Virus record (IMG/VR): IMGVR_UViG_3300036861_000507
Location: 29,969-93,968 of that record
From: a virus
Length of the DNA: 64,000 bases
Direction: 5' to 3' (one strand)
A model generated the notes under the pieces. That model saw nothing but the letters and a program-made list of their open reading frames with translations, had not been told where the DNA came from and did no database searches. Positions 5,332 to 46,320 of this stretch are shown here, in pieces. The position numbers and the translations under genes were made by a program. How positions within the stretch are numbered: position 1 is the stretch's first letter; every line of letters starts with the position of its first letter.

Positions 5332-5735
5332 TCGTAAATCTCCCCGCTATGCTCACGCACCCATACCCGCAGTGCATCCAGATCATCCGGGCACATGCGG
5401 AACCACTCGCAGTGCATGCGCTGGGCGCGGAATTGCTTGTGTAAGGCGCGCTCGTCGCGGCCCTGTCCCTTCGCGACAGCCCACAGCTTGAGTTGGAAGG
5501 GGCAGCCAGGCTGCAGATTGGCCATCCGGGCCCCTGCGCTGTCTTCGGTGTATCCGAGCTTGATGCAGCCACAGCATTCGATGAAGTACACGCGACCGCG
5601 GTTAAGGCGATCAATCTCGCGTCGCGCAGCTCGACGCTCCTTGACGCTCTTCGAAGTGATCTTGGCGGTCAGCGCCAATGCCTCGGCCACCTCGTCGCTT
5701 GCGACCATCACGGACGGGTGCAGGCGTCTACCCAT
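5328..5735 (-). CDS. GIY-YIG (T5orf172/MUG113-like) nuclease
   Basis: VYFI..IKLGYT..R..LQ..ERALHKQF..EWF. Confidence 0.8.
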   Translation of the reverse strand: MGRRLHPSVMVASDEVAEALALTAKITSKSVKERRAARREIDRLNRGRVYFIECCGCIKLGYTEDSAGARMANLQPGCPFQLKLWAVAKGQGRDERALHKQFRAQRMHCEWFRMCPDDLDALRVWVREHSGEIYE

Positions 5736-41932: not shown

Positions 41933-42200
41933 CGGTGGCCTCCTGACAGTCGCGACAAAACTGCGCCCTGAGCCGCGCGATCGAACCCGGCAGCGCCGCC
42001 GGCAGCCGTGCGTCCTCGGCCGCATCAGCATCGCGCCTGGCCTTCTCGGCGGCCTCGGCGTCGCGCTCTACATAGCGGGCGACAACCTTCGCCTCCCGGC
42101 GGTCGCCGATCTCATCGACGATCCAGAGCAGCCCGATGAGACTGGCCGAGATCGCCGCCGTCCACACGAACGGCATGATGCGGAAGGGGAGACCGATCAT
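41922..42200 (-). CDS. i-spanin-like protein
   Basis: N-terminal TM plus helical domain after endolysin. Confidence 0.65.
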   Translation of the reverse strand: MIGLPFRIMPFVWTAAISASLIGLLWIVDEIGDRREAKVVARYVERDAEAAEKARRDADAAEDARLPAALPGSIARLRAQFCRDCQEATDAR

Positions 42201-43279
42201 GGCGTGGCTCCTCTGGGCAGATAACGGCCATCTTTCGCTGCCGCGGCCAGCCCCTTCTCGATCTTCTTGGCAAAGTAGTAGGCGATGCCGATCAAGACGA
42301 CGGCGACCACACCGGTGCAGATCGCGGCCAGCAGGAAGGGATGCTGCTCTCCCCAGGAGCCGACGATCTGGGCGGTTCCCTTGTTCGGGTCGACCAGAGT
42401 TGCCGCAGCGCCGCCCGTGGTGATCGTGGTGGCGGTGCCTTTCCAGATAATGCCCTTGAAGGACTTGAGGCTGGTGGCGGTGCGGCTGCCCTTCTCGGCG
42501 AGGTCATCGAGCACCTTGAAGTTGAAGCGGTCCCAGAACGACGCGCCTGGTGTGTCTGACTCCTGGTCGCGGTCGGTTTCCGCGACTGGCAAGGATTGCT
42601 CGGCGGTTGCCAGCAAGGGCGTATCGGCGGTGGTCATGGCGACGACACTGACCGCGCCCTTCGGCGCCCACTCGCTCGCCAGGTCCTCGCCACCGAACAC
42701 ATTGAGGTCGATGCCCTTGGTCGAGATGCCCGGCACGTCGTGCGGTCCAGGACCGGCCCCGTCACCCGTGTATTGGTGCAGCCAGTACCCGCTCCAGCCG
42801 GCCGGCAGCTTCGGCACCGCGTTGTAGTGCGCGATCCAGAGCCGGTGCTGATTGAAGAACGCGTCCGGGCGTCTCAGCTGCTCCTTGATCAGGTTGCCAG
42901 AGTAGAGCACCGGGCGCTGTCCCGTCTTCTCGTAGACCAGCTGCAGGAACCGGCGGGCCTGCTTGAGCGAGCCGGTGCGGTGCTTGTTCTCCTCGTAGTC
43001 GAGTGCCAGCAACAGGTCCGCATCTGGCTGCGCCGCCTCCAGGAAGTTGGCGACCTGGGCCTCGATGTCGGTGTCGTTCATGAAATGATACGCGCCATAG
43101 AGCAGCCCGGCCTTGCGCGCGCGCTCCTTGCGCATGGCGTAGACCTTGTCGCGGAAGTTCGATCCCTCGGACGCTTTGTGGATCACCCCGCGGATGCCGA
43201 AGGCGTAGACCTCGGTCCAGTCCTTGACGTCCTCGCCCTGGTAGCAGTCCACCACCAAGGGATTCATCGTGTTGGTCAT
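42197..43279 (-). CDS. GH25 endolysin with C-terminal membrane segments
   Basis: HKASEG, GAYHF, ALDYE, LWIAHY, HQYT, IDLN; hydrophobic C-terminus. Confidence 0.92.
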   Translation of the reverse strand: MTNTMNPLVVDCYQGEDVKDWTEVYAFGIRGVIHKASEGSNFRDKVYAMRKERARKAGLLYGAYHFMNDTDIEAQVANFLEAAQPDADLLLALDYEENKHRTGSLKQARRFLQLVYEKTGQRPVLYSGNLIKEQLRRPDAFFNQHRLWIAHYNAVPKLPAGWSGYWLHQYTGDGAGPGPHDVPGISTKGIDLNVFGGEDLASEWAPKGAVSVVAMTTADTPLLATAEQSLPVAETDRDQESDTPGASFWDRFNFKVLDDLAEKGSRTATSLKSFKGIIWKGTATTITTGGAAATLVDPNKGTAQIVGSWGEQHPFLLAAICTGVVAVVLIGIAYYFAKKIEKGLAAAAKDGRYLPRGATP

Positions 43280-43525
43280 GCGTTGTTCCTGTGCGTGCAG
43301 GCTCACGTTCGGTGTGTGGACTGATTTGCGGGCGAGGTGAATCGCGAATTCGCACGCGCCTTCAACGCTTGCTGCGCTTCTTGCGCTTCTTCTTCGCCGG
43401 CTTTGGCTTGTCGTACATGAAGCTGAGGTCGAGGCCGGACATCGAGACCATGATCGTCATCGAGGGTGTTGCTCCTGTGGAGTGTGGATAACGGGGAACA
43501 CTCGGGGATTTTCGCAGCAGATCAC

Positions 43526-43563
43526 TTGCGCTGCCCACGACATTCCCGTACATGCGACGACAT
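43526..43563 (+). promoter_or_regulatory. Promoter of RHH/TIGR-Tas operon with ACGACAT direct repeats
   Basis: TTGCGC-17-TACATG; leaderless ATG 43562. Confidence 0.55.
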
Positions 43564-43753
43564 GAGAAAAACGGCACCCATCTCGTTTCGGATCACGCCC
43601 AAATTGAAGAGCGCGCTGGAACGTCTGGCCAAGGCCGACCGTCGGTCGTTGTCGGCCTACATCGAATTGTGTCTGGAGGATTCCGTCGAGCGCGCGAGCC
43701 GCTCGCGACCTGAGCACACGAGTGCGCGTCAGCAACCGGGGGACCGCCCATGA
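43562..43753 (+). CDS. Arc/CopG ribbon-helix-helix regulator
   Basis: PISFRITPKLKSALERLAKADRRSLSAYI. Confidence 0.85.
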   Translation: MRKTAPISFRITPKLKSALERLAKADRRSLSAYIELCLEDSVERASRSRPEHTSARQQPGDRP

Positions 43754-44670
43754 GCGAGCGCTTCACCAAGGCCGACTTCACCCGCCTGATCCGGCGCGGT
43801 TACGCATCGAGCGATCAGCCCTTTGGCAAAGAGGTCGCCACGCTTCTGGCGTGGGCGGGGTGGTTCGTATCGTGGATGGACGTAGGCGATGAGACGCGTT
43901 TCACGAGCCTTAAGAGAAAGATGCGCGAACGTCGGCCGTTCAATAGCGCCGACCAGGAACAGATCATCACGTTCTTCAGTGGGTCAGACCGTTACTCACC
44001 TGCGCACGGGCTCGTCGTCTACGCCATGCGGCAGATGCAGCAAGAGATCGACAAGCTACGGAAACAGCTTGTCGATGGGGAAGGCCACAGGATGGCTGCC
44101 CGCAAGGGCCATCCGTCGACTGCCTCCCCATCGACTTCCGAACGAGAGGGTGCGGGCCATGAACGAGGTGCCGGAAACGGCCAGTCCTCTTGTGCCTCGC
44201 CCTCTCACTCCCCTGAAGACGACGCGGGCCAACGAGATCATGCCGGCAATGGCCACTTGCCGCTTGCCCCGTCGTCTTCTCCTCTTCGCGACGAGCCGGC
44301 AATCAGCAAGCCTCAGAGGCCGATGCCGGGACTGGGTGCCAGGTTCAAGAAGAAGCCCAACCGCTCGAAGTGGGGAACGGCACGCGATATCCAGGGCGCC
44401 GTCTCCAAGAACCTGCGCGACAGCATGCTGTGGGTCATCAATGGCGAGGGACGGCCGATGCCTCTTAGGAAGGCGGGCTATACCGAGCTGGCATCCTACG
44501 CGAAGCAGGGCGGTGCCGTGGCCATCATCTGCAAGCAGGTGCACTTCCGTCACCAGCGCAATCCCAACCGCTTCAAGCTGTCTGTCGAACAGCTTGAGCC
44601 TGATATCGACGGCATGGAGAAGCGAGCCATCGAAGCGGCTGATCGTGACTTCAAAAGGAGCGCAGCGTAA
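43750..44670 (+). CDS. Hypothetical protein containing three in-frame guide units
   Basis: ATGA overlap with RHH and TAATG overlap with tasA-like gene. Confidence 0.7.
   Translation: MSERFTKADFTRLIRRGYASSDQPFGKEVATLLAWAGWFVSWMDVGDETRFTSLKRKMRERRPFNSADQEQIITFFSGSDRYSPAHGLVVYAMRQMQQEIDKLRKQLVDGEGHRMAARKGHPSTASPSTSEREGAGHERGAGNGQSSCASPSHSPEDDAGQRDHAGNGHLPLAPSSSPLRDEPAISKPQRPMPGLGARFKKKPNRSKWGTARDIQGAVSKNLRDSMLWVINGEGRPMPLRKAGYTELASYAKQGGAVAIICKQVHFRHQRNPNRFKLSVEQLEPDIDGMEKRAIEAADRDFKRSAA
44071..44279 (+). ncRNA. TIGR-like stem-loop array units 1-3
   Basis: GGCCA-N9-TGCC-N6-GGCCA-N9-TGCC at 44083, 44155, 44227 (72-nt period), each closed by its own stem. Confidence 0.88.
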
Positions 44671-45698
44671 TGGCCAAGAAGACCAAGCCGTCAAAGCCAT
44701 CCGCAGACGAGGCCATCAAGGCCCTTGTCCATCTAACGAAGCGGCGCAAGGGCTTCATCCAGTTCGAGAACGCCAACACCAACAGGGTCAGAGCCATCAG
44801 CGCCGGTGCACTCGGCTATCACTCCGACTTGTCGGAAGAGGAAGGCGAGGCGATCACCAAAACGGCGGCGGCGATCATCACTGCCTATCTGAACGACAAG
44901 CCCTTGCCGCGAGAAGCCGCACGGATCAGCGAGGATATCTGGGGTGACCTCGCTGCATGCAGGGTGATGCTGGAGCCTATTCTCACACGGCGCCACGAGA
45001 TCGAATTGCAGATGAAGCAGACAGTGCGCCATCTTCCCATCGCCAAGTGGGCGAAACACAAAGACCGCAATGGACTTGGCGAAGTCGGGCTGGCTGCGGC
45101 CATTGGCGAGGCTGGCGACTTTTCGCTCTATTCCAGGGATGGCCTGCGCAAGCGCTTGGGGCTTGCCCCATTCACGCGCGCCAGTGACGGTGTCACGCGC
45201 GCCTGCTCGACATGGCGCATGGGCGGCGGTCTCAGCAAGGACGAATGGTCCGACGACGACGAGACGGGCTACAAGGGCCCTGGATATTCGCCGCGGCGCC
45301 GCGCGACCATCTACGCCGATGTGCAGGACTCGCTGCTGCGTGCCCAGTGGCGTGGAGCCGACAAGCATCCGAGCGGCAAAGCCGGCCCGATCGGTCCGTA
45401 TGGCGCAATCTACGGGACTTACAAAGCCAAGCAGATCGCACTCAATGAGGCTGGCGCCTTCAAGGACCTCGCCGAGGCGATTGTGGCCTCGTTGCGCAAG
45501 AACGGCAAGACCGTGCCGAAGGCGAACCTCGAAGGCCGCCTGACGGCGAAGCACATCGACAATCGCGCCAAGCGCTACATGGTGCAGAAGCTCTTCGACC
45601 ACATCGGGTCGGAGTGTCGGCGGCGGGCCAGCGGAGTGGTGCCTGAGAGGGCCTCTTTCCAGTTGCCCGCCGCCATCGAACACAGGCCATCAGCCTAG
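44670..45698 (+). CDS. TasA-like Nop/IS110-related protein lacking RuvC/HNH
   Basis: Coiled coil, GLGEVGLAAAIGEAGDF..LRKRLGLAP, GYSPRRR, HIDNRAKRYM; no DEDD domain; flanked by dual-spacer repeats. Confidence 0.82.
   Translation: MAKKTKPSKPSADEAIKALVHLTKRRKGFIQFENANTNRVRAISAGALGYHSDLSEEEGEAITKTAAAIITAYLNDKPLPREAARISEDIWGDLAACRVMLEPILTRRHEIELQMKQTVRHLPIAKWAKHKDRNGLGEVGLAAAIGEAGDFSLYSRDGLRKRLGLAPFTRASDGVTRACSTWRMGGGLSKDEWSDDDETGYKGPGYSPRRRATIYADVQDSLLRAQWRGADKHPSGKAGPIGPYGAIYGTYKAKQIALNEAGAFKDLAEAIVASLRKNGKTVPKANLEGRLTAKHIDNRAKRYMVQKLFDHIGSECRRRASGVVPERASFQLPAAIEHRPSA
45619..45674 (+). ncRNA. TIGR-like unit 4 within tasA 3' end
   Basis: GGCGGCG GGCCA-GCGGAGTGG-TGCC TGAGAG GGCCT-CTTTCCAGT-TGCC CGCCGCC. 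Confidence 0.8.
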
Positions 45699-45714: not shown

Positions 45715-45999
45715 ATGCGCAAAGCTCTGATGCTGACAGTCCTGCTGATCTCATCCGCCATGCCGGCAGTCGCCGACGACACCTATGTTCAGGGCTACGT
45801 GCGAAAGGATGGCACCTACGTCCAGCCGCACTATCGGTCCGCGCCGAACAATTCCAACAACGACAACTGGTCCGTGCAGCCCAACTACAACCCCCATACG
45901 GGGAGGCAGGGCACCGATCGCCCGACCTTCGACGACAGGCCGCCGCCATCCAACCCGTTCAGCTTCGGAGGATCACGGAACAACTCCGGCTATCGTTGA
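45715..45999 (+). CDS. Small secreted protein
   Basis: Signal peptide; V.GY.RKDGTYVQPHYRSAPN..DNWS..N.NP.TG. Confidence 0.8.
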   Translation: MRKALMLTVLLISSAMPAVADDTYVQGYVRKDGTYVQPHYRSAPNNSNNDNWSVQPNYNPHTGRQGTDRPTFDDRPPPSNPFSFGGSRNNSGYR

Positions 46000-46004
46000 G
46001 CCAT

Positions 46005-46320
46005 CCGCCTAACGGCGGTGCGGGCGGCCATGACAGCGGTGCGCTTCGGCGCCAGAGCTGCGTTGCCGCCCGCTCTGACACAGGAAGGAAGCGACTTGAA
46101 ACCGAATGACGGGGATGCTGGCCACCCCAGCAGTGCCAGCAATGGCCAGCGCACAGCTGCCGGCGCCCCGTCTCCCTATGGCGACGGAGCGGGCCAGATG
46201 TGGAGTGCCAGCGATGGCCAGCATACAACTGCCCGCCCGTCGCCTCACAGCTACCGCGCAAGCGGTGCGGGCGGCCAGACAACACATGCGCTTCGGCGCT
46301 TGGCATAGAGTGCCGCCCGC
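46005..46320 (+). ncRNA. TIGR-like stem-loop array units 5-8
   Basis: GGCCA starts at 46026, 46120, 46192, 46273 with paired 9-nt variable segments and closing stems. Confidence 0.88.

What the first reader, a model, noticed from the sequence alone, without database searches (positions are those of the whole stretch)
43750..44670. Guide array written in frame inside a protein-coding gene
Units 1-3 have an exact 72-nt (24-codon) period and lie in the middle of a 306-codon ORF coupled to the RHH gene (ATGA) and to the tasA-like gene (TAATG). They translate as a GH/GQ..A linker between two globular-looking halves. The same DNA would serve as mRNA and pre-guide RNA, so guide excision would cut the message upstream of tasA (possible feedback), and spacers must avoid in-frame stops. 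The host protein is a candidate partner or effector for the nuclease-less Tas (inference).
Basis: partly seen in the sequence, partly recalled or inferred. Interest (0 to 1): 0.88.

Follow-up and report, generated by a model that had tools for sequence, protein, structure and literature searches.

The report
Guide-RNA array inside tasA partner gene
In a soil phage, three hairpin guide-RNA units of a TIGR-Tas RNA-guided DNA-binding system lie in frame in the floppy middle of a conserved protein gene just upstream of the effector gene tasA, so one stretch of DNA appears to encode both guides and protein; papers report this only for tas genes themselves.

Summary
Units at 44071-44135, 44144-44206 and 44215-44279 fit the published stem-loop tigRNA rule (CCA-N9-TG, 10-nt loop, CCA-N9-TG, closing stem). 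The skeleton occurs 6 times in the window, all on the + strand around one gene, against 0.12 expected. That gene (44670-45698) is a nuclease-less Tas: its family profile hits TasR 9MTY at E 6e-12, and its best fold hits are TasH and TasR.

The 306-codon ORF is a real gene. Both flanks show coding composition (GC3 0.77-0.78, against 0.58 in the array). Each flank alone has homologues that are also joined in frame to unit runs: 3, about 6, and 5+6 units.

Two loci found through Tas alone (L004, L006; GC 0.44) carry 6 units in an ORF just upstream of tasA. Their spacings are 69, 72, 78 and 81 nt, all multiples of 3. That frame has no stop; the others have 2-17. Spacers are replaced wholesale between the two loci.

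Still inferred: translation, guide processing, feedback on tasA, and binding of the protein to TasA.

Papers describe tigRNAs only inside tas genes, so this is a new variant of a known kind. This scan has already noted the same layout on other DNA (e1-5328215, e1-5356165, e1-5901838).

The parts
43562..43753 (+). Small ribbon-helix-helix (Arc/CopG-like) gene, first gene of the apparent operon. Its TGA overlaps the ATG of the array-bearing gene (ATGA).
   Evidence: Pfam RHH_1 and NikA-like matches lie below their curated cut-offs. PHROGs gives Arc-like repressor at E 2.8e-6. The overlap is read from the sequence.
43750..44670 (+). Array-bearing gene (306 codons): N-terminal helical domain, linker made of three guide units, C-terminal domain. 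Its stop overlaps the tasA start (TAATG).
   Evidence: GC by codon position is 0.57/0.44/0.77 in the N-domain and 0.60/0.46/0.78 in the C-domain, against 0.61/0.49/0.78 in tasA.
43750..44067 (+). N-terminal domain (about residues 1-106), predicted helical, no known family.
   Evidence: BLASTP of this part alone against P0125 gives E 1e-14, 47% identity over 57 aa. The model shows helices but low pLDDT.
44071..44135 (+). Guide unit 1. Spacer A is CAGGATGGC, spacer B is TCCGTCGAC. CTT lies at both stem bases.
   Evidence: (-41.7 kcal/mol, z -6.4).
44144..44206 (+). Guide unit 2. Spacer A is TGAACGAGG, spacer B is GTCCTCTTG.
   Evidence: (-34.9 kcal/mol, z -3.6).
44215..44279 (+). Guide unit 3. 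Spacer A is ACGAGATCA, spacer B is CTTGCCGCT.
   Evidence: (-32.1 kcal/mol, z -4.3).
44317..44667 (+). C-terminal domain (about residues 190-306): two short strands and four helices, no known family.
   Evidence: BLASTP of this part alone gives E 9e-20 against P0122 and 4e-14 against P0124. pLDDT is 75-86. There is no informative fold, Pfam, PHROGs or Atlas match.
44670..45698 (+). tasA: a nuclease-less Tas protein made of a coiled coil and a Nop-like domain.
   Evidence: 133 homologues. The family profile hits TasR 9MTY at E 5.9e-12 and TasH at 4e-5. The model has pLDDT 84, and its top PDB fold hits are TasH and TasR, then Nop5 and IS621. Pfam finds no nuclease domain.
45619..45674 (+). Guide unit 4, inside the 3' end of tasA. 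Its second box C reads CCT. It is read in another phase, as RRASGVVPERASFQLPAA.
   Evidence: The peptide is conserved in close Tas homologues. The tail from residue 324 is disordered in the model.
45715..45999 (+). Small gene for a protein with a signal-peptide-like N-terminus, lying between tasA and the downstream units.
   Evidence: ORF list. phrog_29674 at E 1.2e-16, function unknown. GC3 0.80.
46016..46077 (+). Guide unit 5, intergenic, with a GCGC-TTCG-GCGC loop hairpin.
46108..46172 (+). Guide unit 6, intergenic.
46180..46244 (+). Guide unit 7, intergenic, 72 nt after unit 6.
46267..46320 (+). Degenerate unit 8. The first half is intact (CCA-GACAACACA-TG); the second box C is degenerate; the 9-bp closing stem is kept.
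   Evidence: and reading of the sequence.

Best explanation
This is a stem-loop TIGR-TasA locus of a soil phage. Its guide array is split into eight units: three in frame inside a separate protein gene just upstream of tasA, one inside the last codons of tasA, and four after it.

The upstream gene is real and is read through the array. Selection keeps every unit a whole number of codons long and free of stops, so that the C-terminal domain is made. The array is translated as a disordered G-H/Q-rich linker.

Inferred:
- Translation of the upstream gene is also kept up so that it carries over to the overlapping tasA start.
- The operon transcript (RHH gene, array gene, tasA, small gene, downstream units) serves both as mRNA and as pre-guide RNA.
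- TasA binds the box C/box D hairpins, and host RNases trim them to guides of about 60-70 nt.
- Those guides direct a TasA dimer to an 18-bp DNA target, where it blocks transcription without cutting.
- Guide excision destroys the message that it comes from, so guide production and expression of the partner gene and tasA compete. This would be a built-in negative feedback.
For: Units as RNA:
- The published skeleton occurs 6 times against 0.12 expected, all on one strand around the tas gene.
- All eight units fold with closing stems of 9-15 bp.
- Across 7 units, 8 of 14 consensus pairs keep pairing through changes on both sides. The box C cytosine pairs with the box D guanine, as in the published structure.

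Tas identity.

The gene is real:
- The flanks show the coding GC3 pattern, while the array does not (0.72/0.65/0.58). The chance-open frame over the downstream units is flat at 0.69/0.69/0.68.
- The C-domain alone matches P0122 (E 9e-20) and P0124 (E 4e-14). The N-domain alone matches P0125 (E 1e-14). Each of these is fused in frame to unit runs of different number.
- No internal Met before the C-domain is conserved.
- P0122 and P0131 (same 90% cluster as P0124) have longest contigs of the same lengths as the Tas homologues P0005 and P0006.

Loci found through Tas alone:
- L004 and L006 (GC 0.44) have 6 units in the ORF directly upstream of tas. L004 has an ATGA overlap with tas.
- Spacings are 72, 78/81, 69, 69, 69, all multiples of 3. 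Intergenic arrays give 64, 64 and 94.
- Stops over the array are 0 in the ORF's frame and 2-17 in the other five frames.
- Between L004 and L006 the N-domain DNA is identical and the stems are conserved. The spacers of units 2-6 are replaced, and a 3-nt indel keeps the frame.

The linker is predicted to be disordered (pLDDT about 30), as published for guides inside tas genes.
Against: - There are no expression data of any kind: neither listed run is on record as RNA.
- In the window itself the open frame is uninformative because of the high GC.
- The protein homologues P0122-P0128 were found as called ORFs, so loci with broken frames would have been missed. Only L004 and L006 are unbiased, and they are one lineage.
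- L006 has lost the C-domain through a 128-nt deletion, and its ORF ends 97 nt before tas. So neither the C-domain nor the coupling is indispensable.
- Homology between the C-domains of the window and of L004 is not significant (E 0.37).
- An in-frame ATG at 44323 preceded by AGAGG could start the C-domain separately in this phage.
- Hairpins of -32 to -42 kcal/mol would hinder ribosomes.
- Stop avoidance in spacers is not measurable.
Confidence: 0.78

Rival explanations
1. The array sits in a gene but is not translated through. The N-terminal part and the C-terminal domain are made separately, the latter from an internal start such as ATG 44323. Alternatively only the guides matter, and the long ORF is what is left of a gene that the array invaded.
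For: An in-frame ATG at 44323 follows AGAGG. L006 lives without the C-domain. In this GC-rich window other frames over the array are open too. The strong hairpins are unfriendly to ribosomes.
Against: No start codon is conserved before the C-domain in P0122, P0124 or L004. Spacings inside the ORFs are always whole codons although their lengths differ, unlike intergenic arrays. In L004 and L006 (GC 0.44) only the ORF's frame is free of stops.
Confidence: 0.12
2. The repeats are only a protein-level repeat, a low-complexity linker. They are not functional guide RNAs. The true guides are units 5-8.
For: There are no RNA data. Units 1-3 give a regular G-H/Q..A..G-H/Q..AP peptide repeat.
Against: Units 1-3 have the same box C/box D skeleton, loop hairpin and closing stems as the intergenic units. 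The stems differ in sequence but stay paired. Codon-position composition in the array is not that of coding sequence. Between L004 and L006 exactly the N9 blocks are replaced while stems and boxes are kept, which is how guides vary and not how linkers vary.
Confidence: 0.04
3. The upstream ORF is the detached N-terminal extension of tasA: a split of the published layout in which units lie in the 5' part of the tas reading frame. It is not an independent partner gene.
For: Longer Tas homologues (P0008, P0009, P0012, P0020, P0034, P0039) carry unit-like G-H/Q repeats fused to their own N-terminus. The stop and start overlap by one base.
Against: In the fused forms the repeats run straight into the Tas coiled coil. 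Nothing in them resembles the 110-aa C-domain or the N-domain, and both of those have homologues of their own. The separate-gene layout recurs in L004 with an ATGA overlap. It probably recurs in the P0005 and P0006 loci too.
Confidence: 0.06

Closest known systems
Intragenic stem-loop tigRNAs inside tas coding sequences (Bifidobacterium longum BlTasA; TIGRFinder survey of Xu et al. 2026, bioRxiv 10.64898/2026.09.09.750476)
   Same: Stem-loop units with box C (CCA) and box D (TG) around two 9-nt spacers lie in frame in a reading frame and map to disordered protein segments. The authors also propose a link between guide maturation and translation. Unit 4 here, at the 3' end of tasA, is exactly this published case.
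   Different: Units 1-3 lie in a second gene that is not tas. That gene has its own conserved N- and C-terminal domains of no known family and is coupled to tasA by overlapping stop and start codons. The preprint describes units within the tas coding sequence only, and says nothing about neighbouring genes.
Stem-loop TIGR-TasA systems (Peromyscus leucopus gut contig PlTasA; Faure et al. 2025, PMC12045711; bioRxiv 10.64898/2026.08.11.744272)
   Same: A nuclease-less Nop-domain effector. Tandem hairpin units with dual spacers, split into subarrays around the gene. Expected action is RNA-guided DNA binding or repression by a dimer.
   Different: In that locus the arrays are described as intergenic subarrays. 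Here 4 of the 8 units are in coding sequence, and the loop between the two spacer modules forms a 4-bp hairpin.
tasParB: a ParB-like gene in one operon with tasA (Faure et al. 2025, fig. S14)
   Same: A conserved accessory gene in an operon with a nuclease-less tasA, which suggests that TasA works with a partner protein.
   Different: No ParB similarity was detected for the protein here by Pfam, PHROGs or fold search. tasParB is not reported to carry guide units. Those loci have dual-repeat arrays.

Membership tests
TIGR-Tas system, stem-loop type | Tas protein with a Nop-like RNA-binding domain | tested here: met
   The profile of 29 homologues hits TasR 9MTY at E 5.9e-12 over the Nop/IS110-C region, and TasH at 4e-5. 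The model's top PDB fold hits are TasH 9W03/9W04 and TasR 9MTY (prob 1.00), then Nop5, IS621 and Prp31.
TIGR-Tas system, stem-loop type | [quoted passage not shown] | tested here: met
   There are 6 exact matches to CCA-N9-TG-N10-CCA-N9-TG against 0.12 expected, and a seventh with one box C change.
TIGR-Tas system, stem-loop type | Variable palindromic flanks that close each unit with a stem of at least 5 bp | tested here: met
   Stems are 9-15 bp in all eight units, with z -2.5 to -6.4. 8 of 14 consensus pairs show compensatory changes.
TIGR-Tas system, stem-loop type | Units are transcribed, bound by Tas and processed to single guides | not testable with these tools
   The two runs that hold the stretch are DNA contigs.
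TIGR-Tas system, stem-loop type | Conserved CUU at the base of the stem, marking the processing site | tested here: inconclusive
   CTT lies at both bases of unit 1 and at the 3' base of unit 3. It is not at every unit.
TasA subtype (no nuclease) | No HNH or RuvC domain N-terminal to the Nop domain | tested here: met
   342 aa, with no Pfam nuclease match at E up to 1. The model is a coiled coil plus a Nop-like domain only.
Published intragenic tigRNA layout (units inside the tas reading frame) | The host reading frame is tas itself | tested here: not met
   Unit 4 meets this feature. Units 1-3 lie in a separate ORF that ends at 44670. Its flanks have no similarity to Tas and have homologues of their own.
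Published intragenic tigRNA layout (units inside the tas reading frame) | Units are in frame, do not break the ORF, and fall in disordered segments | tested here: met
   Residues 103-206 have pLDDT about 30 between two folded or helical parts. Unit spacing is in whole codons here and in L004, L006 and five protein homologues.

The most novel reading that the evidence does not exclude
The array-bearing protein is a dedicated TasA accessory factor, and its mRNA is at the same time the pre-guide RNA. TasA-dependent excision of guides from the operon message cuts off synthesis of the partner and, through lost translational coupling, of TasA itself. The result would be a self-limiting circuit written by dual coding. 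The modular N- and C-domains exchanged around the array would make up a new family of Tas-associated proteins.
Probability: 0.3. Interest if true: 0.8.

Novelty: new variant of a known kind. Interest (0 to 1): 0.62.

Why it matters
Guide RNAs of prokaryotic RNA-guided systems are normally kept in non-coding arrays. TIGR stem-loop units were recently found inside tas genes. Finding them in frame in a second, conserved gene has three consequences.

- The overlap of guide and protein code is not an oddity of the effector gene. It is a tolerated layout, and possibly a selected one.
- It points to an uncharacterised protein family that travels with nuclease-less TasA. The function and natural partners of TasA are open questions.
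- It gives a directly testable case of one transcript being both message and guide precursor, with a plausible feedback loop.

For annotation, array finders that mask coding sequence, and gene callers that skip repeats, will each miss half of such loci.

Tried and rejected
- The look-up of encoding contigs. The contigs of P0003-P0006 and P0122-P0125 could not be fetched, so their adjacency rests on equal contig lengths only.
- Complex prediction. No test of TasA with the C-domain was run.

Searches that found nothing useful:
- The word-based protein search for the ORF found only itself. With the alignment it found only the L004 protein.
- Tas or partner queries found no relatives in viral contigs with P0002, P0123 or P0004. 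The first genome-contig scan found none. GenBank phages gave none.
- The ORF's domains have no match in Pfam or PHROGs, no informative fold match (best Z 5.2, helical and generic), and no usable Atlas hit.
- Rfam gave no match at E up to 1.
- The promoter and terminator scan found nothing above chance.

Analyses without a result:
- No RNA holder was listed. The contigs of two soil DNA runs are identical to the window and add nothing.
- Target search in the 94-kb phage genome, with spacer A on one strand, spacer B on the other and a gap of 0-2, gave no hit with 2 mismatches or fewer. Hits with 3 mismatches or fewer numbered 12, against a mean of 6.3 and a maximum of 15 for shuffled spacers.
- Stop avoidance in spacers: intergenic units read in the same phase are mostly open too, so this test has no power.
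- The 72-nt period as evidence of coding was rejected, because intergenic units 6 and 7 share it.
- The open frame over the downstream units (46018-46308) is not a gene: GC by codon position is flat.
- C-domain homology between the window and L004 is not significant.

Full report
**What is there**

The ORF 43750-44670 (306 codons) exists. Its ATG overlaps the stop of a small ribbon-helix-helix gene (43562-43753, ATGA). Its TAA overlaps the ATG of the next gene (TAATG).

In its middle lie three units, exactly 72 nt apart. Each reads CCA-N9-TG, 10 nt, CCA-N9-TG, and each is enclosed by a 12-13 bp stem with one bulge. This is the rule that the TIGRFinder preprint uses for stem-loop tigRNAs: box C of CCA, CGA, CTA or CAA; a 9-nt spacer; box D of TG or CG; two modules at most 15 nt apart; a stem of at least 5 bp.

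The 38-nt skeleton occurs six times in the 64-kb window, always on the + strand, against 0.12 expected. Three copies are in the ORF and three lie downstream of the next gene. A seventh unit, with CCT as its second box C, lies in the last codons of that gene. A degenerate eighth ends the locus.

All eight units fold with closing stems, at -32 to -43 kcal/mol and z -2.5 to -6.4. In an alignment of seven units, 8 of 14 consensus pairs keep pairing through changes on both sides. The first C of box C pairs with the G of box D, and the 10-nt loop forms a 4-bp hairpin. Rfam has no family for them.

**The neighbouring gene is a TasA**

The 342-aa product of 44670-45698 has no Pfam match but has 133 homologues. 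A profile of 29 of them hits the TasR structure 9MTY of Faure et al. at E 5.9e-12, and TasH structures at 4e-5.

The AlphaFold model has pLDDT 84. Its best PDB matches are TasH and TasR, followed by Nop5/Nop56, the IS621 recombinase and Prp31. There is no nuclease domain, so it is of the TasA type. The window comes from a 94-kb virus record, and two soil metagenome runs hold the stretch.

**Is the 306-codon ORF a gene that is read through the array?**

The window alone cannot tell. At 65% GC, a second + frame and two - frames are also open over the array. The 72-nt period also recurs between intergenic units 6 and 7. Three other lines of evidence decide it.

(i) Composition. The flanks have the coding pattern of this genome: GC at codon positions 0.57/0.44/0.77 and 0.60/0.46/0.78, against 0.61/0.49/0.78 in tasA. 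The array does not (0.72/0.65/0.58). The chance-open frame over the downstream units is flat at 0.69/0.69/0.68.

(ii) Homologues of each flank.
- A full HMMER search found seven other proteins.
- P0122 (266 aa) and P0124 (325 aa) have other N-termini, 3 and about 6 G-H/Q units, and a C-domain that matches ours when ours is taken alone (E 9e-20 and 4e-14, ungapped or nearly so over 106-108 aa).
- P0125 shares our N-terminus (E 1e-14), has 3 units and then a different C-domain. P0123 has 5 units, a small domain, about 6 more units and that same other C-domain.
- Units in these proteins are 24 or 25 codons apart.
- No Met is conserved before the C-domain.
- P0122 and P0131 (in the same 90% cluster as P0124) have longest contigs of 21,852 and 22,043 nt. 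These are the same lengths as for the Tas homologues P0005 and P0006.

(iii) Loci found through Tas alone, which are therefore not biased towards open frames.
- L004 (JGI contig, GC 0.44, Tas 40% identical) has a 311-codon ORF that overlaps tas by ATGA. It contains six units of the form TCCA-N9-TG-AAAG-CCA-N9-TG.
- L006 is a second contig of the same lineage.
- Unit spacings inside these ORFs are 72, 78 or 81, 69, 69, 69, all whole codons. Intergenic arrays give 64, 64 (L001-L003) and 94 (window).
- Over the array the ORF's frame has no stop, and the other five frames have 2-17.
- Box C is read in the same phase (xxC-CAx, His/Gln) as in the window.
- Aligned, L004 and L006 are identical through the N-domain and conserved in stems and boxes. 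The N9 blocks of units 2-6 are replaced wholesale, and a 3-nt indel in a linker keeps the frame.

The model of the window's protein shows the array segment (residues 103-206) as disordered, with pLDDT about 30. It sits between a helical N-part and a C-domain with pLDDT 75-86.

**Limits**

- There are no expression data, because neither listed run is on record as RNA.
- L006 carries a 128-nt deletion after the array that removes the C-domain from the frame. Its ORF ends 97 nt before tas.
- The C-domains of the window and of L004 are not significantly alike.
- In the window, an in-frame ATG at 44323 preceded by AGAGG could start the C-domain on its own.
- Spacers show no measurable avoidance of stops, because intergenic units read in the same phase are mostly open too.
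- Neither domain has a recognisable family or fold.
- No spacer pair has a target in the phage's own genome.

**How it most likely works**

Shown: a stem-loop TIGR-TasA locus with 4 of its 8 units in coding sequence, and a conserved, modular gene upstream of tasA whose linker is the array.

Inferred from the published biology of TasA:
- The operon transcript is both message and guide precursor.
- TasA binds the box C/D hairpins, and host RNases trim them.
- A TasA dimer with one guide binds an 18-bp site, using one spacer on each strand, and represses transcription.

Further inference: excision of units 1-3 cuts the message of the partner gene and uncouples tasA from it, so guide production limits synthesis of both proteins.

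**Comparison with what is known**

Xu et al. [quoted passage not shown] These fall in disordered regions, and the authors suggest a link between maturation and translation. Unit 4 here is that case. So are the longer Tas homologues with unit-like repeats at their own N-terminus, and so is the Myxococcota locus L007.

Units inside a second, non-tas gene are not mentioned in that preprint, in Faure et al. 2025, or in the PlTasA preprint.

Earlier notes of this scan describe the same layout in other genomes (e1-5328215, e1-5356165), and an array in an unrelated late gene (e1-5901838). I did not test those notes.

**Verdict**

The feedback and partner roles are untested. This is a new variant of a known kind.

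Noticed in passing
window 45715-45999; L004 6573-6866: A small gene for a protein with a signal-peptide-like N-terminus (phrog_29674, function unknown) sits between tasA and the downstream units. L004 has a similar small gene just upstream of its array-bearing ORF (BLASTP E 3e-5 over the N-terminal 40 aa). It may be a recurrent passenger of these loci.
   Followed up: partly
L004 4745-5593: L004 has a second, divergent Nop-like gene (282 aa) 2.3 kb upstream of its tasA. hhalign against the Tas profile gives probability 86% and E 5e-6. There may be two Tas paralogues in one locus.
   Followed up: partly
L004 6931-6964 and L006 175-208: One further guide unit lies in the 5' untranslated leader, about 40 nt before the ATG of the array-bearing ORF. 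Its spacers differ between the two contigs.
   Followed up: no
L006 columns 733-860 of alignment A3: A 128-nt deletion right after the array removes the C-terminal domain from the frame. The remnant downstream is about 75% identical to L004, while the N-domain is 100% identical. This points to a locus in decay or to a recombinant.
   Followed up: partly
window 46016-46077 and 46267-46320: Units 5 and 8 share a distinct scaffold: a GCGGGCGG stem and a GCGC-TTCG-GCGC loop hairpin. It differs from that of units 1-3, 6 and 7, so the locus has two scaffold classes, as another first-stage note on this window also says.
   Followed up: no
L007 5461-6576 (Myxococcota MAG, JBNLVK010000212.1): A distant Tas homologue (27% identity) has a unit with a very long stem at 5478-5509, inside the first codons of its own gene. 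This is the published 5'-end intragenic layout.
   Followed up: partly
window 42197-43306 (- strand): A 369-aa ORF on the opposite strand ends just upstream of the locus. I guessed from its sequence that it is a lysin with a C-terminal membrane anchor, but did not test this. If so, the TIGR-Tas cassette lies next to the lysis region of the phage.
   Followed up: no
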